NCBI GenBank assembly: GCA_000002445.1
Contig: AE017150.2
Span: 864,001-928,000 of the forward strand
Origin: Trypanosoma brucei
Lineage: Eukaryota
Direction: 5' to 3'
DNA length: 64,000 bases
Part shown: positions 3,206-53,198 of the stretch, in pieces
How positions within the stretch are numbered: position 1 is the first letter of the stretch
Layout: every line of letters begins with the position of its first letter
Made by a program: the position numbers and the translations under genes
The notes under the pieces: generated by a model
The model's input: only the letters and a program-made list of their open reading frames with translations
Database searches by the model: none
What the model was told of the DNA's origin: nothing

Positions 3206-3441
3206 TGTCAGTGTTGCTTCCTTATGAGTTTATCAAATACACACATATGCGGGAAAGAGGGAAGAGCGTGTGAGTAAAGGGGAAATGCAACAGTGACAAT
3301 AGAAAAAGGAGTTACACAAGATATCAAATAATCACACATACACTCGAGGATAATAAACAAGAAATATGAAAAGGATAACACAAATAATAATGGAAGAGAG
3401 CAGCCATATCACATATCCCAACAAATTGGTTAGTGAGACAC
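3037..3441. repeat. direct repeat copy A (~405 bp, about 97% identical to 4938-5346): 5' end plus upstream region of the surface-protein gene
   Basis: Direct comparison of the sequence aaatactccttcacattaacaatcacgcgtccatcatca...caaattggttagtgag(a/g)cacaggtac in both locations. Confidence 0.85.
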
Positions 3442-4048
3442 AGGTACTCAAAACATTTATTATCATAATGGGCCAAGTATAACTCAGGGATTGAACACTA
3501 TGGAACTCTCGTTTAATGTAACCTCATATAGATTGTTAAAATTATCAAGTGCTGCAAGTTACACGTATAGCAATACATCACACGTAACAGGGAGGACCTA
3601 CAAGCCTCCCACATATACATGGAAGTAAAACATGAAATAACGCGAACTAAACATGACACCCACACACGAAATAAATAATCAACACTAACAACAACGAAAC
3701 AATGGGACATCAAACAGTAAAGATGGTTCAATGGGTCACACACTAAAAGAACAATGATGTGGTCGGAGGGAAGTGATGCCACACATCGGAAGTCCCTCGC
3801 AGAGCCAACATGGTACAAGGAGACCGTTAATATTAGGAACATAAAAGTAATAATTATATAAGAGAGTATTGAGCACTACTGAAAGTAATAGTAGGAAGTG
3901 AAACAATACACGAAGCTAGAAATTGTGACGGTCCGTAACGTAGGATGAAAGCGGTACAGTATTCATTACTCCACTTGATCCTAAACATCACTCAACCACC
4001 ACCCATGTGATACACGATGTGACGCTAATATTATTCACTGGTTCTCAT

Positions 4049-5104
4049 TTAGCCATAATATTGCAGGGCTAAGGGAGGAGCATCAAAACCCTCTGGGGGA
4101 GCAAAAGGTGTTGGCTCCAGGACAAACAACGGTTCTCCAACAACTTCACGCAGCGTCATGGGAATGATCTCCTTTTTAACATTATAATCACAGAACCAAC
4201 GTAAAAGGAAAAGCAGCAACACAATGAGGGAAACAACAGAAATTAGAGCTATGAGAATAATGTGCCAATTACTTCTCTCTTCCAATGACGCAGTTGTCAC
4301 AGTAACTTCTTCATCCTTTGTCACAGTTGGTTCCGGTACTTCGCCTGAGGCAGGTGCAGCTGTAGTTGTTGTCGTCGTGCTGATAGAATCGTGGACCTCG
4401 CAAACAACAACGTAGTCTTGAGACTTTGTTTCAAAGTTCTGACTTGTCCATCGGATAGTCCCAGAAGCCTCCCTGCCATCGTACCAGGTAGTCACATCTT
4501 CGTGTTCATGGTACCATGAAAGGGTATACAACTGACCACTCTTGGGATATTCACTACCCCAAAAGGATGGGTAACCATTCATTGGGGCCGCAAAAGCGTA
4601 TTTGACATATGAACCACGCCAGAACGCCACCCCGTGACCATCAGGCAAAGCCTTTGCAAACAATCCCTTATTCCAACGATACACACAATGACGTGAAGAT
4701 GCCGCGTCTCCAGGCTTACAACGCTTATCAGCTTCAAATACCCTTGTACTGCTGTACACAGCATCTCCACCAAGGTAGCTGACGGCCTCAAACTCAAAAA
4801 TTACACTCTTCATAGCATCCTGCAAACTTTGGTGTGCCGCCTCCGTTTGATCGGCAGGAAGCACAGCACCGTTGTCGACACAATATGCTTCAGCATTATC
4901 GTAACCAACAATGTACCGTTCGTGACGACTAAATGCAAAATTGTCCATAGAGAAATACTCCTTCACATTAACAATCACGCGTCCATCATCATCATCAGCA
5001 GCAGTCACATGCAGCGGACACACGGCAGTTAGCAATAATAAAATACCGCACAGGAGAGCAGCACGCGTAAAACCAAAATTCACCATACGGGTGTCCATGC
5101 TCAT
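4049..5104 (-). CDS. type I transmembrane surface glycoprotein-like protein (signal peptide, Cys-containing ectodomain, Thr-rich stalk, single TM, about 50-aa cytoplasmic tail)
   Basis: 351-aa ORF. The N-terminal hydrophobic signal is MSMDTRMVNFGFTRAALLCGILLLLTAVCPLHVTAA. The stalk is STTTTTTAAPASGEVPEPTVTKDEEVTVTT, the TM segment is WHIILIALISVVSLIVLLLFLL, and a cytoplasmic tail follows. The architecture resembles invariant-surface-glycoprotein-type proteins of trypanosomes; family membership is unverified. Confidence 0.6.
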   Translation of the reverse strand: MSMDTRMVNFGFTRAALLCGILLLLTAVCPLHVTAADDDDGRVIVNVKEYFSMDNFAFSRHERYIVGYDNAEAYCVDNGAVLPADQTEAAHQSLQDAMKSVIFEFEAVSYLGGDAVYSSTRVFEADKRCKPGDAASSRHCVYRWNKGLFAKALPDGHGVAFWRGSYVKYAFAAPMNGYPSFWGSEYPKSGQLYTLSWYHEHEDVTTWYDGREASGTIRWTSQNFETKSQDYVVVCEVHDSISTTTTTTAAPASGEVPEPTVTKDEEVTVTTASLEERSNWHIILIALISVVSLIVLLLFLLRWFCDYNVKKEIIPMTLREVVGEPLFVLEPTPFAPPEGFDAPPLALQYYG

Positions 5105-5346
5105 TGTCAGTGTTGTTTCCTTATGAGTCTATCAAATACACACATATGCGGGAAAGAGGGAAGAGCGTGTCAGTAAAGGGGAAATGCAACAGTGACAATA
5201 GAAAAAGGAGTTACACAAGATATCAAATAATCACACATACACTCGAGGATAATAAACAAGAAACATGAAAAAGGATAACACAAATAATAATGGAAGAGAG
5301 CAGCCATATCACATATCCCAACAAATTGGTTAGTGAGGCACAGGTA
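4938..5346. repeat. direct repeat copy B (partner of 3037-3441)
   Basis: Same evidence as copy A. Covers the 5' coding end and upstream region of the intact gene at 4049-5104. Confidence 0.85.
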
Positions 5347-7087
5347 CACGTCGTATTTGATACAATAGTGGAGAAACTAAAGCAGAAAGAATATACATTA
5401 TTCAACTCTTGTTTGGTACAACCCTACTGTGCGAGGTCACCCGGAGCATTCGAGAGTGATGAAAACCAAATCCTCGCCTATTCATTATCCACGTTAGTTG
5501 AGGAGCGGAACCAACACCGACCGTCACTTCGCAAAGACGAAAAAAAATATGCAGATACAGCATAACATATCAGCTACATGCATGGTTTATGTACTGGAGC
5601 ACAGCTGGACAGTCAGCGACATTTGTCACGTAATTGCGAAACATTGTCCGTTGTTTCGTGCTTGCTGAGAGACTCCTGTAAAGTACATACTCGTCAAAAT
5701 AACCTTAAGGAAGAAAGAGAAGAAAACTAGTGGCAAGCCTTTACGACAGTAGTGAAGTTTTTGCACAAATCCTTCATCACGTGCAAAACTGTTGTAGTCA
5801 TCATCTGTACACTAAATCATTGTGCGCGCCCCATTATTCATTGCTTACTATGTCGCTTTATTGCACTACGCTACGCTGTATAACCTCATCGTCTTGGAAG
5901 TAACGTGGGTCAGATGTGGACCGTTATGAAAAAGTCGTACAACCACCACACGTTGGAAGTGCCCGTGGCGAAGGCAGCGCCGTTGGAGAAGATCAACTTA
6001 TCTTTTGTCCACGTTACGTGCAAACGCAGTTACATCCTTCGGAAACCTTCTGAAGAGCATTAAACCTTCGAAAGACGTTACGCATTTTATCTCGGTCGTG
6101 CCCATACTTACGGCTATGACTCCTCAAAGGATAAATTGAGTAATTATATATGAGTAATCACTCTTCATTTGTCAAAAAAAAAAAGATGAAAGGAAAGGAA
6201 AGGGGGCAAGTTTTAAGATATTGATGTTGTGTAACGGACATGAGTTGCCCTCCATTCCATTTGAAAAAAAAAACAAGATATTTCCTTTATGTTACACACT
6301 CTCTCACATTGTTGTGATTCAGCATTATGAAGCTTACTGCTGCCACTGCCGCTGCCACGCGTTGATAACAGCAACAGCGAGTAGACGGTTTCAGAGGCCA
6401 CCCTCGCCATTTACCGTCCTTCTCGTTTACTTCTCTCCTTTACTAGTTTTGAGACTTCTTTTTTTTTTCTTTTTGCAGCTATCCCCGTGCCTTGTGTCCT
6501 TCGCGTTTGCACAACATAAAGGGGAACTTTGGAGGAGGGGGGGAGGCGATGCCTTTTTATAATGTCATGTGCTCTGTACGAAGCAGAGGAGGGGAGTTAA
6601 ACAGCGTTGTGCTGCTGGCACGAGACGGGGGTTAGACATTTCCTCCAATGCGCATGTCAAAATACACGGGAGGGCTCAAGCAATGTGCAGCACTCACTTT
6701 ACCAGGCAAACCACCTAAAAACAGTCTCTCCACCCCGAGTCAGCATCAAGAGCAGAGGATGGTTGGAGTTAGGATGAAAAAAAAAACTGAGAACGTGAAC
6801 AAGTTAGCGAATGTAAAGTTGAGGGAATCAAGGTACTTTCGTTTTTACACACACACACATACCTACCTACTTGAGCACAGAGCTAAAAAAGAAAATGGGT
6901 AAACTATTTCCCACGCTACTCCACACCATTCTGTCTGACGGAGAGTCCTATGAAGGCAAGAAGCGCCACTCGCTAACCCAACCCATTTCTCCTTCTTTAC
7001 GTGTATCGAAGTTTGTGGAATAAGAAGGAAACTCCTAAAACATACACAAACACACACACACGTATATATATATATACTTCACCACTC

Positions 7088-32658: not shown

Positions 32659-33201
32659 TCATAGACTGAATCGAGCAATCGACATATCATTAACTGAGCT
32701 CTCTTCTTCATCTCCGGTGAAGTGGGTGACACTGGGTTCTTGTACACCGCTTCCACCATCGGTAGAACTATACGAACGACAAGCGCAGGCACAACAATTG
32801 TTTTGTAACAATGCCTTCAACTCCTCTAGCTCCCTCGTTTTCGACGATATGAGGGCCGCGTTTTCGGCAAGGGCCTCCAAAAGAACGCGGTCGTCACCAT
32901 CGGCATTTAGGGTGCTAATATCGTTGCTCGATAACGTCTGATGTCTTGTCCCTGAATTACGTCCTTCATCATTCAAGAATTCATTGATGTTAGCGTTGCT
33001 CTCCTTTAGTTTTTGAATATACTTTTCAATTTCTTCGATTTTATATGCAATGATCTCCATTTTATCACCATCCGACACAGGACCAATTAGCTTCCGCGGT
33101 AAAGCGGCGCTCCGTCGGAGCATGAACACACCCGGGAGAACCATATCCCCCCAACCATCACTACCGTCACCCGACATATCCTTTATACTAAAACAACACA
33201 C
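32659..33201 (-). CDS. hypothetical small coiled-coil protein
   Basis: 180-aa ORF. Central coiled coil (KMEIIAYKIEEIEKYIQKLKESNANINEFLNDEG ... TRELEELKALLQNN). Confidence 0.35.
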   Translation of the reverse strand: MCCFSIKDMSGDGSDGWGDMVLPGVFMLRRSAALPRKLIGPVSDGDKMEIIAYKIEEIEKYIQKLKESNANINEFLNDEGRNSGTRHQTLSSNDISTLNADGDDRVLLEALAENAALISSKTRELEELKALLQNNCCACACRSYSSTDGGSGVQEPSVTHFTGDEEESSVNDMSIARFSL

Positions 33202-33387
33202 ACAGATGTATATACCTAGAAAAACGAACGTCTCAACAAAGTGAAAGTTTATGTGTGATATAAAGATAAATTTATATCACAGTGACAATCGCAATAACGC
33301 TCCAAGCAATACAAAGCAAAATGAAAGCTTTAACCTGCACTGAGGCATAATTCAAAAAAAAAACTAAAACTAGATTGCCACACATAT

Positions 33388-34934
33388 CTACAATTTTAAC
33401 TTAGAAATGAGCGAAACACAATCTAGGGCTAACTCAACAGCCCTCACAGACCGCCGAAACTCTTCGCAATCCACCATGTGACCACTTGATACATAAGACC
33501 TACCGCTTCTGTACTGCCCAACAACACTATTTGCATATGACATCGAACTCATCAGCTTAGCGTGATCCTCAGCAATTTTCTCTACCTCCTGGACATACGT
33601 TGCCGGAGGCTCCACCAAAGAGGGGTTAAGACAAATAGCATGTGAAACCAGCACGGCGTGTATGGCGCCAGCAAAGTGCCGAAGGTACGCATTCTGACTA
33701 CCGTGACGGGGTAACCGACGGCAAATATACTCAGCTAAAAACAGACAACATATGCCAACGACCCCGCCGTTGGTATACATCGAACCAGAATACACCTCGT
33801 AGGCGTATTGAGCTGCCTTTTCACACACTTCTAGTAGAGCCAACTTGGTGATGGGATCACCAACGGGAATTACTATTGTCGCCACACTGTTTTTTCCATA
33901 TATCCAAAGCCCTCCCTCTCTTGACAGCGTTGCTCTGCGCACCATTCCGACCTTAAAGAAACCCCGCTTCGCTGATCCAGCGTATTCTGCCCACGCACAA
34001 AACTCGTGCTCGGTATGAAATGGTGTTGCTCCCGTTGCATGCTGGATAGCGTCACAGACACACAACGACAACCGCTCAAGAGAGACTATTCCCATGTCAA
34101 AAAGCAGTTCCTTCAGCTCACAACACATCAGGCGCTGGGATCCCAAGAAACTAACCCCTATACTGCCCACCAACGTTAGAAAGTCCTCCAACACAGCACC
34201 TCTCATCTCAAGTGAGCACGAAAACAGCAGTATACCACCTTCTCTACAGTCACCCTCCAACAGCATTCGTGATTCTATGGGCAAGTTAACAGATATAAAT
34301 ACCCCATCTTCCACATAAACCTCACTCAACTGTGTTTCCACAGATGACAATAAACACTGACTAACTTCTAGCATGTGGGCATCACTCGTTAAAAAGTATA
34401 TATTCTTTTTTTGGATCACAACATTAGAAATAAGTTGCGCAAGAAAGGCACAATCACCTTTTGCCAAAACACCGCAGCTGAGCAAAATCGACTCCACTCC
34501 ATGCAAGCAGCAATGACTAAATGTTGACTTACACCTTTCGGACCACAAGAAGCCGAAATAAGCTTCGTTGGCCCACTCCTTCAGCAACTTTACAGCTTGA
34601 TGCAAATACATACGTTTCCGGTAACAACAACTGACGCCGCCTACAACACCATCTACTGCACCGAAAAGCCTACATACTAAAAAACCAACCAGCAAACGCG
34701 ACGATTCTTCATAAAAATAAACTTCATTTAAACCTGAAGCCCGAGAAAGCAGCAAGGCACCAAAAAGCTGATTACAACTGTCCCCGCTTTGCATCATACT
34801 GTATTTGACAACATAGCTAAACCACGCAGCCTTAACACTAATACCAGAAGAATCAACAAACAAAAAACGTCTACGACGCCCATATACTTCAAAAAAACAT
34901 ATATTTAAAAAAGTTAACAACTCTTTCAAATTCA
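33388..34934 (-). CDS. divergent TCP-1/cpn60-family chaperonin-like protein (BBS/MKKS-type chaperonin-like?)
   Basis: ELLFDMGIVSLERLSLCVCDAIQHATGATP resembles the CCT intermediate/apical hinge block (dl.rla.atGa). SGSMYTNGGVVGICCLFLAEYI resembles the PGGGA(xE) block. The ORF track extends the ORF to 35028, but those extra 31 codons lie inside the SIRE-like repeat. The likely true start is MNLKELL at 34934. Confidence 0.4.
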
Positions 34935-34954
34935 TACTAATCACGCTAATACAA

Positions 34955-35518
34955 ACCTCATAATCAGACGCAAATCCAACATAGAAAAAGAAAAGGGGAT
35001 AAATCCGGTTAATTCCTCCTTCCGCCACACCAGCAGCACAAACACAACAAAAATGACGAAAAATGATACCAAATCACAACTACAAAAGAAAAAAATAAAA
35101 GTTACGAAACCATCCCGACACCTTGAAACATTTGAACAACACAAATAGCTGCGGGGGCTACGACAACCACAACAACGCAGCAACCAGTGGACCCTCTGAG
35201 GGACGGATGCTCGCACCGCAAAGAAAACTTCGGAGAGCACCACACACACACACACACACCCGTCTGAACCGCTCCCGTCGCGAGAAACAGCCTCCGCCTC
35301 TTCTCAGGTCAAGCACCGCTTAATACCACCGAACCAACATTCCCCACTGCATTCCGCACCCACACCACGGAAACACCACCGTCCAGACACGCTACAACAG
35401 TAAATATGAGTAGGGCCCGTCAAAACACACGGCATCCGGTGGGAAATGCCAACACGTTGCCACAAATTGGCGCAATCATGCAAAAGTCACTACCGCAACA
35501 ACCGAGGGCACTCCAGTA
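34955..35518 (-). repeat. intact SIRE-like interspersed repeat (~565 bp; segments X'+A), inverted relative to the split copy at 36640-37057 + 41360-41505
   Basis: The reverse complement of 35095-35518 matches 36640-37057 almost perfectly, including an internal (CA)8. The reverse complement of 34955-35095 matches 41360-41505. The contiguous small ORFs (66 aa MKHLNNTN..., 104 aa MCVCVV...) are mirrored on both strands. Confidence 0.85.
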
Positions 35519-36639
35519 GCCTCAGTTGTCATATCTTCGCTTTTCCTCCCGCTCCTGGAGACACCCTTGCTGTCCCACCAACCGCCTGAATCTACGCGCA
35601 CCTGCCCGCAGACGGCCCTTTTGTCACCGGTTTCCGCCCACACCTGTCACCGCAGCAACAGCCCGCCTATACTCCACGAGCCGGTGCCGGCAGAGGGAAG
35701 TGCCTTGCTTTTCGCATAATGCCACTGAACAAAGTCCCAAGCGAAAACAATGAGGGACAGCCGCACAAGACCGCCCAGTAGCGTAGTGACGGCAGCTCAG
35801 ATAGAGCGCTGCGGACCCAATGGATGCCATGACGGCTCTGAGGTTTACCCCCCCCCCCCCCGTGGAGGCAAACTCAGCGAGACCGGGGTCAAAGGGCCCA
35901 CTTGCCTTGTTCTGCCGATAAAACATAGAAAGGCGACAGGTGACCCGCGGCATCTGGTTTCCTGTCAGCAAGGTGGTGTCGACCACTGCAGCCCCATCGT
36001 GCAGTGGGTGCCATTCCCCAGCGTAAGAAAAGCATCGGTTGGGTGTGTGCCCTATCTGGTCCCCGGATGAACCTTCCCAACATATCGCTAGTCACATTCT
36101 TTTGCGGCGACCCACCCTCAAGCCCTTGCTAGCGGCCAAAGCTCTTCAGACACGGGTGTACTGGTACTTGTTGAGGATTTCCCTCACCTTATTCGGGTTC
36201 CATCTTTGGTGCTTCAGTGCGTTAGAAGGTCCGCCATATGCTGGCTCGTTGGGTGCATTTTTCGATACGTAGAACACGGTCTCAACGTCTTATTGGCGAA
36301 GCTCCGGCAAATTGCTATGGGGGCCCAGTGACCGGGCAAAGGTCCTACGTTTGAGGAGTCGCGGCTGACGGGCGACTTTTGAGTACCACATTTCAAAGGA
36401 AAATGGGGGGGGGGCGGCCAGTGATTCAATCGGTTCGTCCGGAACATTAAGTGGCCTTGGAGATGAAATCCTTTACTTGCCTCGGAAGCGACGCAAATCT
36501 CTCACTATAGTTGGGGAGAAATAGCCCTCGCCCCTCCGGCGTCCAAGCTTGCACGCGGAAGTACCCTAAGGGTGACGCTACCTAATCATAGAGGGACAAC
36601 GCATCACAAGAACTTCGAACTGCGGAAAGATAAGAGTGC

Positions 36640-37057
36640 CCTCGGTTGTTGCGGTAGTGACTTTTGCATGATTGCGCCAATTTGTGGCAACGTGTTGGCA
36701 TTTCCCACCGGATGCCGTGTGTTTTGACGGGCCCTACTCATATTTACTGTTGTAGCGTGTCTGGACGGTGGTGTTTCCGTGGTGTGGGTGCGGAATGCAG
36801 TGGGGAATGTTGGTTCGGTGGTATTAAGCGGTGCTTGACCTGAGAAGAGGCGGAGGCTGTTTCTCGCGACGGGAGCGGTTCAGACGGGTGTGTGTGTGTG
36901 TGTGTGGTGCTCTCCGAAGTTTTCTTTGCGGTGCGAGCATCCGTCCCTCAGAGGGTCCACTGGTTGCTGCGTTGTTGTGGTTGTCGTAGCCCCCGCAGCT
37001 ATTTGTGTTGTTCAAATGTTTCAAGGTGTCGGGATGGTTTCGTAACTTTTATTTTTG
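36640..37057 (+). repeat. 5' part (A') of the split SIRE-like repeat, flanking the retroelement
   Basis: Matches the reverse complement of 35095-35518. Similarity stops at cttttattttt|gtgagg. Confidence 0.85.
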
Positions 37058-37454
37058 TGAGGTTGAGAAAGGAATCGTCCATCCTTACCACTTTCCTTGT
37101 TATTCGTTCTTTCCTTTCTTATATATGCATAGAAAAACTATTACTGAGGAAAGTTTTTTAAAAAGGTAAGTAATCGCTGTAAGTTTTGAGAGATGGTAAC
37201 GACAACCCCTCCAACTATATTGGATGCCGAATGGAAAATAAGTTTGAAAGAAATAAGGACTTTTGTGAAGCAGGGCGGTCGGACCACATTTTCATTCGAC
37301 TATTGTCCCCCTTTTGGAAATACAGCGGTACACGTAGACGGTTTGGTGAGGCTTGAAAATGGAGAGCTTCGAGTGATTTTTGACTAGGCAGCTAAATTTC
37401 GTCGATTTACGGAGCTCGTTGGTTTCCTTCAATATGCCCTAAAACATTGAATTC

Positions 37455-38440
37455 TTGTGTATGTTCAAAGAAAATAGAGATATGTTTCGTAACGAATGTC
37501 TAGCACTAGAAGCAAATAAGTCTAATTTATACCAACAGTACGAAATGACAAGACCACAAATGAATGATGAGCACTGGAGAATGCAAAACCAGTCGATGGA
37601 ACTGAATAGGCAAGTTGAAAGGTTCATGCAAGAAAATTGTGCTTTGAGAGGGGAAATGGAACAGATGCTCTTCCATAACAATAGGTTAGTAGTTGTCATT
37701 GAATCGATAACACCTGAGTTACACCACTGGAAGATATTAGCAAATACGGACGCCACACATAAAACGGATCCAGTTGTCGAACAAGGGAGAGTAAAGAATG
37801 AATCAGATCAAAAGGAAAAAGGTAGAATAGAAATAAAGTTCCCTTTTGACTCATACAAATCACAGTTTTGTCAGAAATCAAGCGGTTAACATGTAAGGAA
37901 CCACAAGGTAGGAATCAGAGGCATTCAGCAGGTAAAAATAGCTTTGTGGGCAAGGGTTTTCCCCCTAAAGAAAACATACGGACGTTTAAAGGGGAGATCG
38001 AATACATGACGGAGACATCACCGGAACAGTTTTTTAACTGCGTACAAAGAATTGTTCCCATTACCACAAAAACCGGATTACGGGTCACAATGCGTCTGGG
38101 AGCAATTTGCGGCGTGGATAAGTGCAGTGGGAGTATAAGGATCTCAGAAGGTGGGATAACAGTCGGGAGGTCGATTCACACTTATCTTCGAGTCTTACAA
38201 ACAGCGAAAGCCCATCCGGGGGTGCGAGTGGAAGCGTTGGCAAAGGCAGTACATGACTCAAGGAGGGACGAGGATCCATACCATCAAGCATACCCAAAAG
38301 TTCAAAAACCGACTTCCCAAGTTAGCAGAATACGATGCTTCCGATGTGGGAAGTTGGAGCACTACAGTGCGTCATGCTTCGTTAAGGATGCCAAGGTTCC
38401 GTGGAAGCCAACAAGCGAATACCGGCCCCGGAAACAGTAA
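37455..38440 (+). pseudogene. gag-like ORF remnant with CCHC zinc knuckle (frameshifted near 37870)
   Basis: A coiled-coil N-terminal ORF (37455-37889) is followed, in a different frame, by a 190-aa ORF ending ...RIRCFRCGKLEHYSASCFVKD. This contains a Cx2Cx4Hx4C motif. Confidence 0.6.
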
Positions 38441-38870
38441 GCTTCGGGGCCGAGAAAATATTGGAATCCGTATCCATGGTTACGGGGCCAAGGACCCACA
38501 AGTGGGTAATAGCGAATGGAGAAATGCCACGGAAAACTTGCCGGGTAAAGGTCTGATGGTAGAGGAGGACACAGAGGACACAAAGGGAAGAGAGCCAGCA
38601 AGAGAAACGGCATCCCCAGTTTTGCGCCCTACGAAAACACCGGTAAACGAAGTTATCGTTATAAAACTGGCGACCCACGATCCGGTTATGGCGGCGTGGG
38701 CTTCATAATCGAATTGCATAGCAAGGGTCATGAGGACACAGTCAACTTGGGAGCAGCGGCGGTCGATTCTCAGAAGATTCTGCGAGTTTGCGGCAAAACA
38801 CAACGTGGAGCCAAGTGAGGGGAATGTTCCCATCTTCATTGTGAGTTTGTAACTGGACAAAAGCAGCGCC

Positions 38871-39382
38871 GTGAGGTATACAGGAACTCTTTTGTCGATG
38901 CTGGCAGCGGAAAAGGCACTAGCAAGAATGTTTTTGTTGGGTTTGCAGAGAAAAGTGGAGGAAACACCAATAAAGCAGGCCTGCCCCATGGAGATGTGGG
39001 AGCTGGACATGATAAGCGACACAACGGAACTGGAAAGGGAGCGAGTGGCCATGCGTCTGTCTTGGGTCACTGCCAGTCGTTGGGGAGAGATTGCTTCGCT
39101 GCAAAAGGAAAATTTTGTCGCTCATCCTCAGGACGAGGAGGCACTAATCGTCGACTGGGGGGCATCCCAAAGACATTCAAGTTAGATCCACGCAGAGCAG
39201 CGAGATATGTGGTCATCGCGGGCGAGGACGCCAAAAAGTTGAAGAAAGTCGTAAGGTTGATGGTGGATGAAGAAAAACTAACCACCATCAGCACAAGGGA
39301 CGTGGAAAACATTCTGAAACCTTACGCAATGACGGTACATTCTATAAAAAAAAAAGGGGGTCTCTACCTCATGCGACCGTAG
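38871..39382 (+). pseudogene. tyrosine recombinase (DIRS/VIPER-type integrase) remnant
   Basis: LSWVTASRWGEIASLQKENFV resembles the box I arginine region (LxxxTGxRxxExxxL) of YR catalytic domains. A later HSIKKKGG...Y region lies in a shifted frame. Confidence 0.4.
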
Positions 39383-39774
39383 CGGTGGTAGAAAACGACC
39401 TCGACTCACACATTCTGGCCCAGATGGGAAAACACGCGGACCCCATGGAATTTCGTCGGAGCACCACTAGGAATTTAGGGTCGTGGGTGGCAGTGCTAAA
39501 CAAGTAAATTTAACAGTGCTCATGCATAAACGGAGGGTGAGTGGGCCACGTTACTGTGGAAGGTTCAGAATCCAACGATAAAAATAATAGGACAGGACCT
39601 TTATTTCAGAGACACAACATTCTCCGACGCACCCATCAAACCAAGGTCGCCTCGGATACTGAGCAACAGGAGTCACCGTAACAACAGATGAATGTGGAGA
39701 CTTTATCGCTAAAATGGATCAAGTAACGACTGAATAGTCAATATTTACAGCTCTTCAATGATGTTTGGGAGACC

Positions 39775-41163
39775 ATGCGCAGACCGGCCAGGAAAGAAGG
39801 TCGGGAATACGAGCCAAAATTGACGATTTCAGACCAGAATACTATCACCGTGGAAAGAGAGGGTACAATTCAGAAAGTGTCCAACAACCCTACCACGGGT
39901 TGGGCGGTGCCCTTCACGGTAGTTGAAGAGAAGCCAACGGGTTGTCGAGGGCGAATCATTACATGGCCAAAGTCTAAGAATGCACAGGACGATTATGAAG
40001 CTATTGTTCCTCTGGGACACGTGCCACGCTACCTGGATGCTGTCCATGATGAGGGTGCAGCGCTTTGTGATTTAAAAGCTTCGTTTTCTTAAAAGCGGGC
40101 TTGCTGATGGACACCCGATCAGGTTTCTTATGCCGGACGGCAGGTGGAAAGCTCGTGGAACTTGCCCGACTTCCTATGGGTTACAAGTGTGGCCCGGGAG
40201 TCTTACACACGGCCCCGTGTGTATTGGCCGGGGACTCTGCAGTAGTGAAAGCTGAATATGCAGCGCCTTCGTAGCTAAAAGTACATGTGTGGATTGATAA
40301 TATTCGTATTAGCAGTCCACGGGAAGTTGTAAACTGATGGAACAAGGTGATTAGAAGAAACATGTTACAGCGCGGCGCAACTTCATGGAAAAGCAAGTCC
40401 ATCACCGCACTATATGATTTCATTGGAGTCCACTTTGGTCATGGTTCAAAGATGGTGCCATTGAGCAAAAAAACGGTGCGGAAACTCAGGAGGCTATCCC
40501 ACTGAGAGGGTTACTGTTGACAGTTTGGAGAGCATAGTATCCCGAATGATGTATGCGGCAGGGGCACGGGGAGGTTCTCTGTTCCGACATTTTTTTTTCT
40601 TAAAGATGGTAAGACGGCGCTTGTCGGAGCTCAACAGGTGTGTCTTGGCGCAGAACGACATGGCACGGCTTTCCCTCCAGGCAATCCGCATGGGGCAGGA
40701 GTGACTAAGCGGGTTGATCGAAAAAGAACCCGTTAAGCCGTCAAGGTAATTACCGACTTCTGCAACATCGGTTACCGATGCTTCTATACACGGCTGGTGA
40801 GCTTCACTTTTTAAGGACAATGGGAAAGTATGGGCTTCAGGAGGCCAGCGGGCACAACCTCCACATTGTATCTCTCATACCAAGGCGAGAGCAGTGACAT
40901 TGGCATTGAGAGCTTTTCAGGGCAGCCTGCTTAATAATATTTACGTATGTGTGGATAATACTACAGTTATGCATGTCACGAAAAAAGGTAACACACACTC
41001 CGATGCTTCGGTTCAAGAAGTAAGTTTAATAGATCATGTTTATCTGGAGGAAGGCATCGAGGCTCTTTGGGACTATGTTGTTTCATTAGCGAATTTCGCT
41101 GATGGTATCTCACGGAGGAGGGCGGTTTTTCCATCGGACTTAGCGAAAGGGTGGAACTTGTGA
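39775..41163 (+). pseudogene. reverse transcriptase / RNase H remnants
   Basis: A VHVWIDNIRIS peptide (YxDD-like, around 40280) is followed by a stop. The ORF 40894-41163 contains ...YVCVDNTTV... and ...SLANFADGISRR, which is an RNase H-like C-terminal (N..AD.LA) pattern. Confidence 0.35.
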
Positions 41164-41359
41164 TAGGGAGCGCGGGAGGCGGGATGAGAACGCTTTCACC
41201 AATTCCTTATCGTAAGTGTTTTGTTTCTTTCATTGTCTTAATATTGGGAGTTTTACCTACATTGAAAAAGCTTACCGTGATACCCCAAAATTGGCCATTT
41301 AAATAATTATATCTTTATCATAATTCTCTTCTATATGTAGGAGTAGGTAAGGTGCAAAC

Positions 41360-41505
41360 TATTCTTTTCTTTTGTAGTTGTGATTTGGTATCATTTTTCG
41401 TCACTTTTGTTGTGTTTGTGCCGCTGGTGTGGCGGAAGGAGGAATTAACCGGATTTATCCCCTTTTCTTTTTCTATGTTGGATTTGCGTCTGATTATAAG
41501 ATTCA
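41360..41505 (+). repeat. 3' part (X) of the split SIRE-like repeat, flanking the retroelement
   Basis: Matches the reverse complement of 34955-35095 (ttcttttgtagttgtgatttggtatcatttttcgtca...ggaattaaccggatttatcccc...). A pyrimidine-rich tract and AG dinucleotides follow, ahead of the VAMP7-like gene. Confidence 0.8.
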
Positions 41506-41712
41506 TCCGTGCGTGTTGTATAATTATTGATTGTTTTATGTTTGTAATTGGTTATTTGTTGCTTGTTTCTTATATTGCTCTTTTATTTGCTTCGTTGATA
41601 TGCTCAAATATATTCTTTTACATGTTTGTAGTGTAGTGTAGTTGAAGGAAAGGGTCCTAGTTTGTACCTGAGTATTGTGTTACTCTTTTTTATATATGGG
41701 AAGGAATTGCCA

Positions 41713-42378
41713 ATGCTTATATCTGCCTCCTTTGTGTCTTACCAGCGCATGATCGTTGCAGAACATCGTGTTACGGCTACAATGAAAGGTGTTGTTGATG
41801 TTATGCTCGAGCAGCTTCCTCGTTATGACACTAAAGCCGTCTATCAGTATGATGAAAGCGTGTTTCATTTTCTTGTTGAAAATGAACTTGTGTACGGTTG
41901 TGTCACAGGTGTGGATCACACAAAGCGCGTGGTATTTGAATTTTTGTCACGTATCCGTGATTTCTTTAAAAAAGAGTTTGCTGGTAGCGATAGGCGATAT
42001 CCACGACCCTCGGCTATTTCTTTCAGTGCTTGCAGTAAATTCGGCGCAGTGCTTTCAGATAATATGCGGTCATTCAATGAAACTAATAGTACAGATAAAC
42101 TTGGTGAAATTAATAAACTTGTTGATGATACGAAGCATACAATGTTGGGGAACATAGACGTGCTAATTGATCGCGGGGAGCGAATTGAATTATTGTGTCA
42201 TAAGACGGAAGTGCTTAACACCGGATCCCGTGCTTTTCAGTCCAGTGCTAGGTCGTTAAAGTGGAAAGTGTGTATGGGAAAGATGCGGTTTGTTATTGGG
42301 ACGTTTTTACTTTTCCTTTTCTTTGCGACCATATCTTTCATTTTCATTTGCGGCACTAACCTCAAGTGCAAAAAGTAG
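41713..42378 (+). CDS. R-SNARE, VAMP7-like longin-domain vesicle-associated membrane protein
   Basis: Longin-like N-terminus (MLISASFVSYQRMIVAEH...VYQYDESVFHFLVENELVYGCVTGVD). SNARE motif NIDVLIDRGERIELLCHKTEVLNTGSRAFQSSARSLK with the central Arg. C-terminal TM segment. Confidence 0.7.
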   Translation: MLISASFVSYQRMIVAEHRVTATMKGVVDVMLEQLPRYDTKAVYQYDESVFHFLVENELVYGCVTGVDHTKRVVFEFLSRIRDFFKKEFAGSDRRYPRPSAISFSACSKFGAVLSDNMRSFNETNSTDKLGEINKLVDDTKHTMLGNIDVLIDRGERIELLCHKTEVLNTGSRAFQSSARSLKWKVCMGKMRFVIGTFLLFLFFATISFIFICGTNLKCKK

Positions 42379-42512
42379 GAAACACGCTATCACGTAGTCG
42401 GACATTTTTTCATAGTGTAGTTTTTTATAGTTATTTCCACTTTGAAAAAAAAACATTGGTCACTTATTGCAGTTGCAGAGTAAGTGGTATTTGACAGATA
42501 CCTGCTGTTTTA

Positions 42513-43778
42513 TTGCATTATCTTTCGGGTCTTATCACTAAAAAGCAAAAAGAAGCTATACAAGGAAAGGGAAACTTGTCAAGGAAGTCCATTCTAAAAG
42601 AACCTATGGTGGTTACTTTGGTGGAACCAACGAAATGGGCTAATTTAATAGAGGAATACCCAGACACTCTTTATTCTTCCGAATCGGCAAAGAATGTTGA
42701 AAATGTACTCTCGAAAACGTCTACGAGGAGGCACCAAAAAGTGCTGTTCAACGCCGCCAAACCCTTTATGCCAAAAATGATACACGATTGCATTGGTACT
42801 TCGATTCTGAACTCTCTTGTTAAGTATGGTACTGTTACTACCGTCGACGGCGTTTGCAAAATAGTTTTCGAGTCTTGTGAAAAAATTCTGAGATGCCGAT
42901 GCAGCCCTGAAAATCAACGAATTGAATCGTTGGGTTCGCTTTTGGAACGCATTGTTTACCGCTACGACTGTTTGGGTAATTACCGGCAAAACATCATCGA
43001 AGTACTGAAGTCTCTAAGGCCCTCACAGCTTATGGGCACCCCTGTGCTCTTGTTGGCTGCCGCGCGACTGTTAATTCAAAATAGGGATTTTGCATCTTTG
43101 GTTCTGACAAATAGTGAGGCTCGAACGGAGTTTTTTTCAGCCTCCTTAGTAAGAACGAATAGGGGCGTCGTATCTGCTTTCTGCAAAATTCTTTTATCAG
43201 AAGATGCTTTAAAGGACGGTGAAATGACTGGTCTTTGTTCGGCGTTTATTTTCGATTCCTTTTCCGGATTGTATGAACCAAAAGCCACGCTGCGACCGAT
43301 GAAAGACATAACACTACTACTGGCTAGCTGCGGTTCCATTGATGGGGTCCGAAATCTCGGGAAAAGTCTGGCGCGTTGGCCGGATATTCACGGTAGGGCA
43401 AAGGGTGATGATTATGCCAAAATTGTGGCTCATATTTTATCCCGCCTACCTGATACCGACAGCGGATTGCCGCTTGTTAAGGCAGTTCTTCACTCTGAAG
43501 AGGATATAAATGATCGACTTCGTTGTCGCAAATCATCTCATTTGCATCTTCTCGCTTCAATTGCTGAAAAGCAGTCGTACGTTCAAGTTCTCTCAGAGGC
43601 ATTGGGTACTTCTGTGGAAAAGAAGCTTGCGAGTGCTGTTGTGCAGTACCGAAGAGTGACGAAACCACGAGTGGTTTCGACAAAAGAGTTGCTTTCCCGA
43701 AAGCTTGCCGATATGCGGAAAGGCTCCGGGGAGAATGACAGCGCGCGTAACGTTTCCAAGAGATTCCGTGAATGGTAA
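42513..43778 (+). CDS. hypothetical protein (421 aa)
   Basis: Long ORF in PTU orientation. No domain recognised. Confidence 0.4.
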   Translation: MHYLSGLITKKQKEAIQGKGNLSRKSILKEPMVVTLVEPTKWANLIEEYPDTLYSSESAKNVENVLSKTSTRRHQKVLFNAAKPFMPKMIHDCIGTSILNSLVKYGTVTTVDGVCKIVFESCEKILRCRCSPENQRIESLGSLLERIVYRYDCLGNYRQNIIEVLKSLRPSQLMGTPVLLLAAARLLIQNRDFASLVLTNSEARTEFFSASLVRTNRGVVSAFCKILLSEDALKDGEMTGLCSAFIFDSFSGLYEPKATLRPMKDITLLLASCGSIDGVRNLGKSLARWPDIHGRAKGDDYAKIVAHILSRLPDTDSGLPLVKAVLHSEEDINDRLRCRKSSHLHLLASIAEKQSYVQVLSEALGTSVEKKLASAVVQYRRVTKPRVVSTKELLSRKLADMRKGSGENDSARNVSKRFREW

Positions 43779-51056: not shown

Positions 51057-53198
51057 ATGGATGAGCAAAACAGTGAGAGCTCGGATGTGGGGGGCTTACT
51101 TGAAGTTCTCGAAGAGTGTGCGCTTGGTGACTGGGACGTGAGTGCAGATGAGTTGCTGTTAAAGTCGTTGATGACAATGCAGGCGAAGCTTTCCGCCCGT
51201 TTTGACTCTATTCGCGGTATGGTGGACTCCCTTTATGATGAGGCGCGTACGGCCTCGATCCAACTTCAAAACGCCATGAATTCCTTTGCCGTCTTATCAC
51301 AGAGGCAGTTCGTGCAGAACCGTGTGTCGGCAGAAGACGAAGGTAGCGAAAGAGAAACCGAGCCCTCCAAGTCTGATGAAGGCGAGTCAGAGGATAGAGA
51401 AAGGGGTCTTGGGGACGTGGAGGTGAGGGTTGCCCGTATGTGCCAAGAGTGCGTAGACCTTAGCTATCGTGTTCTCAAGAAACGAACAATGCCGTTGCTC
51501 GACGAGGACTCTTCCCTGAGTGAGTATGGTTCGGGGGATGATGAGAGCGAAGGAAGCTCCGCTGAGGTTCGCCGCCCTTCTTGCTCTGAGAATCTCTTCA
51601 TGTCACCCATTACTTCAAGAAAATTTCTCAGCGACCCGTACGGGGGCTACTTTGATAATACTGTCGGCAAAGCAGATTTTACCTCGGGAGGGAGGCGTCG
51701 TCTTGGTGGTTCTACGGGACGAATGGGAAGAGGCTCGCGGCAAAACCCGTCAACGAGATTAGGGGGACCGACGACCGTGCGTCCTGCTGCGCCACCGCCG
51801 TTGCCACCCACTCCCCCACCGGTTCAGATGGCGAAGGCGAAAGGGACTTTGCCCCCACCACCTCCACCGATGCCCACAGGAAAGCTTAAGGCTCCCCCGC
51901 CTCCACCGCCACCGTTTGCGTCGATTGCTGGAAAGACGAGGGCACCCCTGCCACCGCCACCCCCTGCGCCTACTGGAAAGACTCAGGCCCCAGCAGCTCC
52001 ACCCCCTGCGCCTACTGGAAAGACTCAGGCTCCAGCAGCTCCACCCCCTGCGCCTACTGGAAAGACTCAGGCCCCAGCAGCTCCACCCCCTGCGCCTACT
52101 GGAAAGACTCAGGCTCCAGCAGCTCCACCCCCTGCGCCTACTGGAAAGACTCAGGCCCCAGCAGCTCCACCCCCTGCGCCTACTGGAAAGACTCAGGCTC
52201 CAACAGCTCCACCCCCTGCGCCTACTGGAAAGACTCAGGCTCCAGCAGCTCCACCCCCTGCGCCTACTGGAAAGACTCAGGCTCCAGCAGCTCCACCCCC
52301 TGCGCCTACTGGAAAGACTCAGGCCCCAGCAGCCCCGCGTGTCGCCGCACAGACGCAAAAGCAGCAGGCAAAAAAAGGTGTAGCTGCGTTTCTCGACTCT
52401 TCCGACAGTTCGGACGGGTCAGAAGCGAAACCATGTGCGGGGGCTGTGGTAAGACCGGGTCTGGCAGCTCCTTCGCTTGTACGAGAGAATTCAACGCTCC
52501 CGTCACCCGCACCAGTGCTAAGCATGAAGAGGCCACCTGCTGCTTCATCGGGAAAGGGAAAGGTTGCCCTGTTCGACTCGAGCTCGGATAGTGACGAAGA
52601 AAACTCTGGTGTGCGAGCAGCCACTTTCACTGAGAAGGATGACCAACAGTTCCCTAAGGGAGGGGTGGGTGCTGGTGATTTGGCGCGCAAAGGCTCTCCG
52701 AGGGGGGTTCCGAGTCGAGCAACGAGCGGCAGTAGGGTCGGTCCAACTGACCAACAGAAGCTGATATCACCAGTGGGCAGCCCGCGGAGCAGGCGTCCAA
52801 TCTTTTCTAGTTCAAGCGGCAGCTCTCCGGAAGCGACTCCACCGAGGGCGAGTATCAAACAAACCGGTTGCCGAGGTGCGGCTCTCGGGGTATCCAGTAC
52901 CGCACAGGTAGGCGGCGGTAATAACCAAAGCACAACCGCAAAACCTCTCCCAACCACATTTCAATCTGTCGAGAGGAGTGTTCCAGCGTCTCCACCGCCG
53001 CCAGAAGGAGTGCGTGCTAGGAGTGAGGCCGCACCTGCACAGTCGCCCGATGCCGCAGCCAATGTGATGCCTATTGTGAAGACGGAAACTCAACCACAAG
53101 GTGATGACAAAGAGCAGCATACTGCTGCGCCCCTGAAGGTGATACCCAATGTAGCCTTCAGCAAGCGTAAAATAAGCGATAGCGATTCCGACAATTAG
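51057..53198 (+). CDS. proline-rich protein with 9 tandem APTGKTQAPAAPPP repeats (FH1-like polyproline region) and acidic LFDSSSDSDEE motifs
   Basis: 713-aa ORF. PPPPPP runs precede a near-perfect 14-aa repeat array. No FH2 or WH2 domain is recognisable downstream. Confidence 0.6.
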   Translation: MDEQNSESSDVGGLLEVLEECALGDWDVSADELLLKSLMTMQAKLSARFDSIRGMVDSLYDEARTASIQLQNAMNSFAVLSQRQFVQNRVSAEDEGSERETEPSKSDEGESEDRERGLGDVEVRVARMCQECVDLSYRVLKKRTMPLLDEDSSLSEYGSGDDESEGSSAEVRRPSCSENLFMSPITSRKFLSDPYGGYFDNTVGKADFTSGGRRRLGGSTGRMGRGSRQNPSTRLGGPTTVRPAAPPPLPPTPPPVQMAKAKGTLPPPPPPMPTGKLKAPPPPPPPFASIAGKTRAPLPPPPPAPTGKTQAPAAPPPAPTGKTQAPAAPPPAPTGKTQAPAAPPPAPTGKTQAPAAPPPAPTGKTQAPAAPPPAPTGKTQAPTAPPPAPTGKTQAPAAPPPAPTGKTQAPAAPPPAPTGKTQAPAAPRVAAQTQKQQAKKGVAAFLDSSDSSDGSEAKPCAGAVVRPGLAAPSLVRENSTLPSPAPVLSMKRPPAASSGKGKVALFDSSSDSDEENSGVRAATFTEKDDQQFPKGGVGAGDLARKGSPRGVPSRATSGSRVGPTDQQKLISPVGSPRSRRPIFSSSSGSSPEATPPRASIKQTGCRGAALGVSSTAQVGGGNNQSTTAKPLPTTFQSVERSVPASPPPPEGVRARSEAAPAQSPDAAANVMPIVKTETQPQGDDKEQHTAAPLKVIPNVAFSKRKISDSDSDN
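51955..52335 (+). repeat. 42-bp tandem repeat, about 9 copies (gctccaccccctgcgcctactggaaagactcaggcYccagca), coding
   Basis: Read directly from the sequence. Copies differ only at synonymous C/T positions and by one A-to-T codon change. Confidence 0.9.

What the first reader, a model, noticed from the sequence alone, without database searches (positions are those of the whole stretch)
34900..41760. Repeat halves sit directly at the 5' ends of the first gene of each divergent PTU and may donate splice signals; ORF-track start of the chaperonin-like gene is an artefact
The intact SIRE-like copy abuts the chaperonin-like gene so closely that the ORF extends 31 codons into the repeat, giving the N-terminus MAEGGINRIYPLFFFYVGFASDYEVCISVIS. 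These codons are mirrored by the ORF 41352-41636 on the other side, so they are repeat sequence and not gene. The true start is most likely MNLKELL at 34934. On the other side, segment X at 41360-41505 is followed by a long pyrimidine tract and AG dinucleotides about 100-200 bp upstream of the VAMP7-like start at 41713. In T. cruzi, SIRE is known to contribute trans-splicing and polyadenylation signals to neighbouring genes. The same could apply here to the two genes that open the PTUs.
Basis: partly seen in the sequence, partly recalled or inferred. Interest (0 to 1): 0.55.

Follow-up and report, generated by a model that had tools for sequence, protein, structure and literature searches.

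The report
Retroelement-filled strand-switch region, T. brucei
This is the gap between two back-to-back gene clusters on Trypanosoma brucei chromosome 2, filled by a short SIRE-like repeat and a dead VIPER retroelement; the long reading frame is an artefact, and published RNA mapping shows the repeat supplies a minor splice-acceptor site for one flanking gene but not the other.

Summary
The window is T. brucei TREU927 chromosome 2 (window coordinate + 864000 = Tb927_02_v4). The repeats are real: a 560-bp SIRE-like element (35513→34954, minus strand) faces a degenerate VIPER retroelement (36634→41503, plus strand) across a 1.1-kb GC-rich spacer. The layout is the same in T. b. gambiense.

The 31-codon extension is an artefact. 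It starts at a GTG, consists of repeat DNA, and lies upstream of every mapped spliced-leader (SL) site. Orthologues in five other trypanosome species begin at the Met at 34935 (not 34934). Public annotation (Tb927.2.5080, 515 aa) already uses this start.

Splice donation is half right, judged against Kolev et al. 2010:
- **Tb927.2.5080:** the 5'-most SL site is window 34956. Its AG (34958-34957) and pyrimidine tract (34999-34983) lie inside the repeat. The predominant site, however, is cryptic and sits inside the coding sequence at 34837.
- **VAMP7-like gene (Tb927.2.5120):** the site is 41632, 129 nt past the repeat end. It follows a unique T-rich, AG-free tract, so nothing is donated there.

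This is a modest T. brucei example of something known from T. cruzi SIRE. "Chaperonin-like" has only weak support.

The parts
33388..34935 (-). CDS of Tb927.2.5080 (515 aa), a Trypanosoma-specific conserved hypothetical protein with a possible divergent Cpn60/TCP-1 relationship; first gene of the minus-strand PTU
   Evidence: 99% identical to XP_951684.1 / CBH09564.1. GeneDB v4 ORF 898935-897388; orthologues start at the same Met; 4 of 8 aligned sequences hit PF00118. Table S14 lists it as first gene of a 'Divergent' PTU.
34936..35028 (-). Artefactual 31-codon N-terminal extension of the ORF track (GTG start); it comprises 5'UTR plus repeat DNA
   Evidence: GTG start. (34954-35097 is repeat). 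(5'-most SL site 34956 is downstream of 35028). (no orthologue has the extension). (the 546-aa form exists only as an automatic Logan call).
34936..34956 (-). 21-nt 5'UTR defined by the 5'-most mapped SL-addition site (898956)
   Evidence: Kolev 2010 Table S1. AG checked at 34958-34957.
34957..34999 (-). Repeat-derived 3' splice-site signals: pyrimidine tract TCCCCTTTTCTTTTTCT (34999-34983) and the first AG after it (34958-34957, context TGAG|G with the disfavoured G at -3)
   Evidence: identical in T. b. gambiense. (AG + PPT rule and exclusion of G at -3).
34837..34839 (-). Predominant SL-addition site of Tb927.2.5080 in procyclic cells (898837; AG at 34839-34838), 98 nt inside the annotated CDS; next in-frame Met is M47 at 34797
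   Evidence: Table S12: predominant SAS 898837, dispersion 154.33, 5'UTR 'NA'. Sequence. (T. equiperdum OVI model of 469 aa starts at M47).
34954..35513 (-). Solo SIRE-like element (560 bp) made of the VIPER 5' segment (35513-35091) joined to the VIPER 3' segment (35097-34954), with a 7-nt overlap TATTTTT at the junction
   Evidence: Structural definition of SIRE.
35514..36633 (.). Unique GC-rich (53-60%) spacer between the head-to-head elements; GC skew changes sign here; C14 at 35848-35861 and G10 at 36405-36414 put a G-run on the sense strand of each PTU; candidate transcription start region (inferred)
   Evidence: No Rfam family. GT-rich/G-run promoter concept.
36634..41503 (+). Degenerate VIPER retroelement. 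5' repeat segment 36634-37056. Interior 37057-41359 with Gag-like CCHC ORF (37868-38440), putative recombinase-like stretch (38643-39504), RT (39805-40575) and RNase H (40594-41115) remnants broken by stops and frameshifts. 3' repeat segment 41360-41503
   Evidence: (zf-CCHC, E = 0.0014). (frames). (E down to 1.8e-200 to trypanosomatid proteins carrying RVT_1/RVT_3, including 'TcC31.12').. (collinear with a T. melophagium element).
41504..41631 (+). Unique T-rich, AG-free tract followed by the first AG (41630-41631): the 3' splice-site region of the VAMP7-like gene, outside the repeat
   Evidence: (predominant SAS 905632 = 41632).
41632..41712 (+). 81-nt 5'UTR of Tb927.2.5120
   Evidence: Table S12: predominant 5'UTR 81, dispersion 22.5.
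41713..42378 (+). CDS of Tb927.2.5120, a longin-type R-SNARE (VAMP7-like, 221 aa); first gene of the plus-strand PTU
   Evidence: Longin 3e-11, Synaptobrevin 1.3e-23. (221-aa annotated models). (Table S14).

Best explanation
The interval is the divergent strand-switch region between Tb927.2.5080 and Tb927.2.5120 on T. brucei chromosome 2. It is almost entirely retroelement-derived. A solo SIRE-like element points toward the minus-strand gene, and a degenerate VIPER points toward the plus-strand gene. They sit head-to-head around a 1.1-kb GC-rich spacer.

The 546-aa ORF is a by-product of listing ORFs with bacterial start codons. Translation of the full-length protein starts at the ATG at 34935.

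The SIRE-like element ends only 18 nt from that ATG, so no room remains for a native 3' splice-site region. The only SL-addition site that can yield the full-length protein uses the element's own pyrimidine tract and the first AG after it, giving a 21-nt 5'UTR. That AG has a poor context (G at -3), and most SL addition in procyclic cells occurs at a cryptic AG 98 nt inside the CDS.

On the other side the VIPER 3' end is 210 nt from the ATG. The VAMP7-like gene uses the first AG after a unique T-rich, AG-free tract, so it does not depend on the repeat.

Shown: repeat anatomy, SL-site positions, orthologue starts. Inferred: that the element displaced an ancestral splice region, that the repeat-derived site is the functional one for full-length protein, and that transcription of both PTUs starts in the spacer or repeat arms.
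For: Identity and coordinates. The CDS start, stop and three independent AG dinucleotides all fit an offset of 864000.

Repeat anatomy. Conservation in T. b. gambiense.

VIPER identity of the interior. T. brucei is known to carry degenerate VIPER copies (PMC6681497; 76 copies in PMC12278014 Table 1).

Start codon: GTG start. T. grayi, T. congolense, T. melophagium, T. cruzi and T. vivax proteins of 515-520 aa all begin at the Met aligned with M32, an invariant column. Among six species the first 46 residues are conserved about as well as the rest (27% vs 32% pairwise identity).

SL sites (Kolev et al. 2010, PMC2936537). Table S1 gives the 5'-most site of Tb927.2.5080 as 898956. Table S12 gives predominant sites 898837 for Tb927.2.5080 and 905632 for Tb927.2.5120. 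Table S14 lists both as first genes of 'Divergent' PTUs.

Signals: the pyrimidine tract and first AG lie inside the repeat. G at -3 is disfavoured. The AG-free T-rich tract 41504-41629 lies outside the repeat.
Against: The repeat-derived site is only the 5'-most site, not the predominant one. Read counts per site (Table S4) were not available, so its share is unknown. Kolev et al. class the gene as having a misannotated start.

The T. brucei N-terminal 46 residues are less similar to orthologues (13-21%) than the rest of the protein (26-35%). This is compatible with weakened constraint.

The same AG and pyrimidine tract in the VIPER 3' segment is not the predominant VAMP7 site, so the repeat is not an intrinsically strong acceptor.

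Only procyclic-form data from one study were accessible. No other T. brucei SIRE/VIPER copy could be examined, so generality is untested.
Confidence: 0.78

Rival explanations
1. The functional protein starts at M47 (34797), as the predominant SL site at 34837 implies. The upstream repeat-derived SL site would then be splicing noise, and the repeat contributes nothing to expression of either gene.
For: Table S12: predominant SAS 898837 lies inside the annotated CDS, dispersion 154. The gene is listed in Table S1 as having a misannotated start. The T. equiperdum OVI model of 469 aa starts at MMQSGD. The repeat-derived AG has the disfavoured G at -3. The T. brucei N-terminus is more diverged than the rest of the protein.
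Against: All six species keep an open frame and a Met at the same aligned position. Across species the first 46 residues are conserved about as well as a median 46-aa window of the protein. A real SL site exists 21 nt upstream of that Met. Internal SL sites are common in trypanosome data sets.
Confidence: 0.18
2. Both repeat halves donate the trans-splicing signals of both PTU-opening genes.
For: The VIPER 3' segment carries the same pyrimidine tract (41458-41474) and an AG at the equivalent position (about 41498), in sense orientation upstream of the VAMP7-like gene.
Against: The predominant VAMP7 SL site is 41632, with low dispersion (22.5) and an averaged site (905654) downstream rather than upstream. 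Its pyrimidine-rich AG-free tract 41504-41629 lies outside the repeat, and homology stops at 41503.
Confidence: 0.05
3. The 546-aa ORF is real and the repeat has been exapted as coding sequence for an N-terminal extension.
For: Only that the frame is open for 31 codons and that automatic Logan gene calls report it.
Against: It starts at GTG and has no in-frame ATG upstream of 34935. No SL site is mapped upstream of 34956. It is absent from all orthologues. Curated models are 515 or 518 aa.
Confidence: 0.01
4. The perfect 423-nt inverted repeat is an assembly artefact rather than two genomic elements.
For: The arms are 100% identical in this assembly.
Against: The same inverted arrangement, with arm-specific differences (95% across arms including a ~20-nt indel), is present in the independent T. 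b. gambiense assembly.
Confidence: 0.02

Closest known systems
T. cruzi SIRE providing a trans-splicing acceptor (ribosomal P2-beta genes; Vazquez et al. 1994, cited from my own knowledge) and polyadenylation sites (stated in PMC11957388)
   Same: A short non-autonomous element built from the two ends of VIPER sits in sense orientation just upstream of a gene. Its pyrimidine tract and the following AG are used for SL addition.
   Different: The species is T. brucei, where SIRE is often described as absent ('exclusive to T. cruzi'). The element is 560 bp rather than about 428 bp and appears once in 64 kb rather than in thousands of copies. No nucleotide similarity to T. cruzi sequence was demonstrated. 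The donated site is minor and in poor context, not a strong acceptor. No polyadenylation role is possible because the gene opens its PTU.
VIPER tyrosine-recombinase retrotransposons of trypanosomatids (Vazquez 2000; Lorenzi 2006; Ribeiro 2019, PMC6681497)
   Same: The order is Gag-like (CX2CX4HX4C), then a putative recombinase region, then RT and RNase H. The termini match the two halves of the short element. The copy is degenerate, as reported for T. brucei.
   Different: The copy shows A(5')...B(3') only, without the extra terminal A2-B2 described for complete T. cruzi Dm28c copies. Segment lengths are A = 423 bp and B = 144 bp, against 173 and 219 bp in T. cruzi. The recombinase domain could not be confirmed with the tools.
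Dispersed GT-rich RNA pol II transcription start regions at divergent strand-switch regions of T. brucei (Siegel 2009; Kolev 2010; Wedel 2017, PMC5579346)
   Same: This is a divergent SSR of 6.8 kb listed as a 'Divergent' initiation region. The sense strand of each arm is G+T-rich (67-70%), with a (GT)9 run and a G-run on each sense strand.
   Different: Here nearly all of the region is retroelement sequence arranged as a perfect inverted repeat. No TSS or H2A.Z coordinates for this locus were accessible.
T. cruzi GC-rich, L1Tc/VIPER-containing strand-switch regions that act as centromeres (Obado 2007, PMC1868937; PMC13508446)
   Same: A GC-rich retroelement cluster containing VIPER lies at a PTU boundary. 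The T. cruzi locus upstream of the orthologous gene also carries VIPER and L1Tc-like remnants and is 50-66% GC.
   Different: The T. brucei chromosome 2 centromere maps elsewhere (Tb927.2.1470-Tb927.2.1560), and no AT-rich repeat array is present here. Whether the syntenic T. cruzi locus binds kinetochore proteins could not be checked.

Membership tests
SIRE (short element derived from VIPER) | Consists of the 5' terminal segment of VIPER joined to the 3' terminal segment of VIPER | tested here: met
   35513-35091 equals the VIPER 5' segment 36634-37056 (100%). 35097-34954 equals the VIPER 3' segment 41360-41503 (97%). The two are contiguous in the short copy. Definition from PMC6681497.
SIRE (short element derived from VIPER) | Nucleotide similarity to the T. 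cruzi SIRE consensus | not testable with these tools
   No T. cruzi SIRE reference sequence was available. blastn of the element against one 21.5-kb T. cruzi locus (L003) gave no hit, which is uninformative.
SIRE (short element derived from VIPER) | About 428 bp, highly dispersed (1,500-3,000 copies in T. cruzi) | tested here: not met
   The element is 560 bp, and there is one solo copy in 64 kb. Genome-wide copy number in T. brucei could not be counted.
SIRE (short element derived from VIPER) | Contributes RNA-processing signals to neighbouring genes | tested here: met
   The 5'-most SL site of Tb927.2.5080 (898956) uses the AG and pyrimidine tract inside the element. This is not so for Tb927.2.5120.
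VIPER retrotransposon | Reverse transcriptase / RNase H of the VIPER lineage | tested here: met
   A conceptual RT-RH translation hits trypanosomatid proteins at E down to 1.8e-200, several with precomputed PF00078 or PF13456, including 'TcC31.12'. Homologues give RVT_1 at E = 1e-5 and RVT_3 at E = 6e-4, below Pfam's cut-offs. The T. brucei fragment itself gives RVT_3 at E = 0.022.
VIPER retrotransposon | Gag-like ORF with a CX2CX4HX4C zinc knuckle upstream of the enzymes | tested here: met
   ORF 37868-38440 contains CFRCGKLEHYSASC. zf-CCHC scores E = 0.0014, 19.1 bits against a cut-off of 20.8. The motif is described for VIPER in PMC6681497.
VIPER retrotransposon | Tyrosine recombinase domain between Gag and RT | tested here: inconclusive
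   Stretch 38643-39504 is 52% identical to the T. melophagium copy. It gives only Phage_int_SAM_1 at E = 0.08 and no PDB hit.
VIPER retrotransposon | Split direct repeats: A1 at the 5' end; B1, A2, B2 at the 3' end | tested here: inconclusive
   A at the 5' end and B at the 3' end are present. No A2-B2 follows in cis, and no internal direct repeats were found. This matches the original 'first part of SIRE ... last part of SIRE' description but not the complete Dm28c form.
Cpn60/TCP-1 chaperonin family (for Tb927.2.5080) | Significant match to PF00118 or to solved chaperonin structures | tested here: inconclusive
   The T. brucei protein has no Pfam hit at E <= 1. A profile of 6 sequences gives no PDB hit. 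4 of 8 aligned sequences hit PF00118, best E = 4e-6. The AlphaFold model has pLDDT 43, too poor for a fold search.
Longin R-SNARE (VAMP7-like) for Tb927.2.5120 | N-terminal longin domain plus synaptobrevin SNARE motif and a C-terminal transmembrane segment | tested here: met
   Longin 3e-11 and Synaptobrevin 1.3e-23, both above the cut-offs. A hydrophobic C-terminus is visible.
Divergent strand-switch / pol II transcription start region | Flanking genes diverge; 5'-triphosphate RNA or histone-variant marks; G/T-rich coding strands | tested here: met
   Gene orientation. Kolev Table S14 lists both PTUs as 'Divergent'. GC-skew sign change and GT-rich sense strands.

The most novel reading that the evidence does not exclude
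The two polycistronic units are driven from retroelement sequence. The head-to-head VIPER/SIRE 5' ('A', LTR-like) segments are kept identical by gene conversion. Each is GT-rich on the strand that is transcribed outward, and each lies downstream, on its own sense strand, of a G-run in the spacer. Together with the spacer they would form the bidirectional pol II start region, so a dead tyrosine-recombinase retroelement would have been co-opted as promoter and partial splice-signal donor for a whole PTU.

A related reading: the VIPER remnants found upstream of the same gene in T. brucei, T. melophagium and T. cruzi would mark an ancient retroelement-rich boundary, possibly an inactivated ancestral centromere.
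Probability: 0.15. Interest if true: 0.6.

Novelty: new member of a known kind. Interest (0 to 1): 0.3.

Why it matters
For annotation it matters little. The correct start is already in the reference, and ORF lists made with bacterial start codons will over-extend trypanosome genes.

Biologically it is a concrete, experimentally anchored case in T. brucei of a VIPER-derived short element sitting 18 nt from a start codon. The gene is left with only the element's own weak acceptor plus a cryptic internal one. This illustrates how retroelement insertions reshape mRNA processing in an organism that controls genes post-transcriptionally.

It also flags a transcription start region built almost wholly from retroelement DNA. 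That could be a convenient natural test case for what defines a pol II start region in trypanosomes.

Tried and rejected
1. Word-indexed protein searches with the 546-aa ORF and with the VAMP7-like protein each returned only the T. brucei cluster. Orthologues came from the exhaustive HMMER search.

2. Exact look-up of the Tb927 515-aa protein and of two repeat-encoded ORFs found nothing. No other T. brucei SIRE/VIPER copy could be retrieved, so generality is untested.

3. Supplements of Nilsson 2010 held no data for these genes, and those of Siegel 2010 are not held. Kolev Table S4 (all sites with read counts) is truncated before chromosome 2.

4. Pfam on the VIPER fragments gave only sub-threshold hits. 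A PDB profile search for the recombinase-like region gave nothing.

5. Rfam found no RNA family in 33000-43000.

6. The AlphaFold model of Tb927.2.5080 was too poor (pLDDT 43) for a fold search.

7. I tested whether repeat homology runs on through the ATG, which would make the start codon repeat-derived. It is not significant.

8. I considered that this SSR is the chromosome 2 centromere. Rejected: the centromere lies between Tb927.2.1470 and Tb927.2.1560.

9. The first BLAST against 'L003' silently used a missing file. It was redone correctly.

10. Neither the VAMP7-like gene nor its downstream neighbour lies within 10 kb upstream of the orthologue in T. melophagium or T. cruzi. Synteny across the SSR could therefore not be followed.

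11. Vazquez 2000 and Siegel 2009 are not held.

Full report
**Identity of the window.** The ORF 33388-35028 is 99% identical to a conserved hypothetical protein of Trypanosoma brucei. Its cluster contains four gene models and one automatic call:
- TREU927: XP_951684.1, 515 aa
- T. b. gambiense DAL972: 518 aa
- T. equiperdum OVI: 469 aa
- T. b. equiperdum: 292 aa
- an automatic Logan call of 546 aa

Kolev et al. 2010 (PMC2936537), Table S1, gives the GeneDB v4 ORF of Tb927.2.5080 as 898935-897388 on the minus strand. With the ATG at window 34935 and the stop at 33388, the window equals Tb927_02_v4 coordinates minus 864000. The offset is confirmed because all three published splice sites used below fall immediately after an AG in the window sequence. 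The right-hand gene, 41713-42378, is a longin/synaptobrevin R-SNARE of 221 aa, Tb927.2.5120.

**Checking the observation.** The repeat finder reports two inverted pairs:
- 35091-35513 with 36634-37056: 423 nt, 100% complementary
- 34954-35097 with 41360-41503: 144 nt, 97% complementary

The left copy is therefore contiguous on the minus strand (35513→34954, 560 bp, with the two segments overlapping by TATTTTT). The right copy has the same two segments on the plus strand, split by 4.3 kb. No further copy lies in the window. The whole arrangement recurs in the independent T. b. gambiense assembly at 97.6-99% identity, with arm-specific differences. It is genomic, not an assembly artefact.

The ORF-track N-terminus is as quoted, but it begins with GTG. 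It lies 18 nt past the repeat end. The 'mirror' ORF 41352-41636 lies on the same repeat DNA but in another frame. It mirrors the 104-aa ORF 34941-35255, not the 31 codons. Homology between the copies does not continue past 34954/41503.

**What the repeats are.** The 4.3-kb interior carries these features in order:
- an ORF with a CX2CX4HX4C zinc knuckle
- a stretch 52% identical to the corresponding part of a T. melophagium element
- stop- and frameshift-ridden remnants with RT-like (HVWIDN) and RNase H-like (DASxxGW, NxADGISR) motifs

A profile of the RT/RH remnants finds proteins in T. theileri, T. grayi ('TcC31.12'), T. melophagium, T. vivax, T. cruzi and Leptomonas at E down to 1.8e-200. 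Several of these carry RVT_1 or RVT_3. The recombinase domain could not be confirmed.

This is the organisation described for VIPER. SIRE is defined as the short element made of VIPER's 5' and 3' terminal segments (PMC6681497 and PMC12278014). T. brucei is known to carry degenerate VIPER copies (76 by RepeatMasker). So the left copy is a solo SIRE-like element and the right copy is a degenerate VIPER, head-to-head across a unique 1120-bp spacer.

**The start codon.** An exhaustive HMMER search found orthologues only in Trypanosoma. The T. grayi (519 aa), T. congolense (520), T. melophagium (520), T. cruzi (518) and T. vivax (515) proteins all begin at the Met aligned with M32 of the ORF-track protein. 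That column is invariant, and none has the extension.

Four points together make the 31 codons an artefact:
- the start is GTG
- the sequence is repeat DNA
- no mapped SL site lies upstream of 34956
- the curated annotations do not include it

This part of the finding is correct and already known.

**Splice sites.** Kolev et al. mapped SL-addition sites in procyclic cells.

For Tb927.2.5080 the 5'-most site is 898956 = window 34956 (Table S1). The AG is at 34958-34957, inside the last five bases of the repeat. It is the first AG after the repeat's pyrimidine tract TCCCCTTTTCTTTTTCT at 34999-34983. The 5'UTR is 21 nt. The sequence is identical in T. b. gambiense.

Table S12, however, gives the predominant site as 898837 = window 34837 (AG at 34839-34838), 98 nt inside the CDS. 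Its dispersion is 154, and the gene is listed among those with 'misannotated' starts. The repeat-derived AG has G at -3, which Kolev et al. report as excluded at T. brucei splice sites. This fits a weak site.

The 469-aa T. equiperdum model starts at M47, the first Met after the internal site. Against M47 as the only start, the first 46 residues are conserved among six species about as well as the rest of the protein (27% vs 32%). The T. brucei N-terminus itself is more diverged, at 13-21% vs 26-35%.

For Tb927.2.5120 the predominant site is 905632 = window 41632, with a 5'UTR of 81 nt and dispersion of 22.5. The AG at 41630-41631 is the first AG after a 126-nt stretch, 41504-41629. That stretch is 66% pyrimidine, 55% T and AG-free (1.3% of shuffles). 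It lies wholly outside the repeat. Table S12 lists no transcript between the two genes. The VIPER 3' segment, although it carries the same tract and AG, is therefore not the acceptor for this gene.

**Mechanism.**
- Shown: the SIRE-like element ends 18 nt from the ATG of the first gene of the minus-strand PTU, and the only upstream SL site uses the element's signals.
- Inferred: the insertion displaced whatever splice region existed before, leaving the gene with a weak element-borne acceptor and a stronger cryptic one in the CDS.
- On the other side, 210 nt of unique DNA provide an ordinary splice region.

Kolev's Table S14 lists both genes as the first of 'Divergent' PTUs. Transcription must therefore start in the spacer or the repeat arms. 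The following features fit the GT-rich dispersed promoters of Wedel et al. 2017, but this is inference only:
- the GC skew changes sign in the spacer
- C14 (35848-35861) and G10 (36405-36414) put a G-run on each sense strand
- each arm is 67-70% G+T on its sense strand and carries a (GT)9 run

**Comparison with known systems.** The closest precedent is T. cruzi SIRE. It is reported to supply polyadenylation sites (PMC11957388) and, from my own knowledge of Vazquez et al. 1994, a trans-splicing acceptor for P2-beta genes. The T. brucei case is the same kind of event but weaker, single and one-sided.

'Chaperonin-like' is only weakly supported. The T. brucei protein has no Pfam or PDB hit, while 4 of 8 aligned sequences hit Cpn60_TCP1 (best E = 4e-6). 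The structure model was unusable.

**Verdict.** The ORF artefact is ordinary and already resolved in public annotation. The splice-signal donation holds for one gene (a minor site) and fails for the other. Novelty: a new member of a known kind. Interest: 0.3.

Noticed in passing
L002 1393-5279 (T. melophagium); L003 3180-4369 and 4411-6441 (T. cruzi YC6): VIPER remnants also lie within 10 kb upstream of the orthologue of Tb927.2.5080 in T. melophagium (same strand as the gene) and in T. cruzi (opposite strand, as in T. brucei). In T. cruzi the remnant abuts an L1Tc-like RNase H/C2H2 ORF in a 50-66% GC region that resembles T. cruzi centromere-type domains. This could reflect an ancient retroelement-rich boundary or recurrent insertion into the same gene-free gap.
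   Followed up: partly
window 35091-35513 and 36634-37056: The 423-nt inverted arms are 100% identical although the 144-nt arms are only 97% identical. In T. b. gambiense the long arms differ mainly by a ~20-nt indel. This suggests ongoing gene conversion between arms 1.1 kb apart, or a capacity to form a large hairpin or cruciform.
   Followed up: partly
window 35848-35861 and 36405-36414: A C14 run and a G10 run in the GC-rich spacer place a G-run on the sense strand of each diverging PTU. The GC skew changes sign between them.
   Followed up: partly
window 33388-34935: Public databases hold five different start models for this one gene (546, 518, 515, 469 and 292 aa). T. b. gambiense has an extra in-frame ATG 9 nt upstream, created by a G-to-A change at window 34944.
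   Followed up: yes
window 51868-52420: A tandem array of 42-bp units (about 10 or more copies, 96-98% identical in the core) was seen in the whole-window repeat scan. It presumably lies inside a coding region.
   Followed up: no
window 3047-3523 and 4946-5423: A direct duplication with a period of about 1.9 kb (300 nt at 97% plus 155 nt at 79%), probably a tandem gene pair.
   Followed up: no
L004 (T. grayi), L005 (T. vivax), L006 (T. congolense): In three draft assemblies the contig ends within 0.3-2.1 kb upstream of the orthologue. This would be expected if repeats also occupy the upstream region in those species.
   Followed up: no
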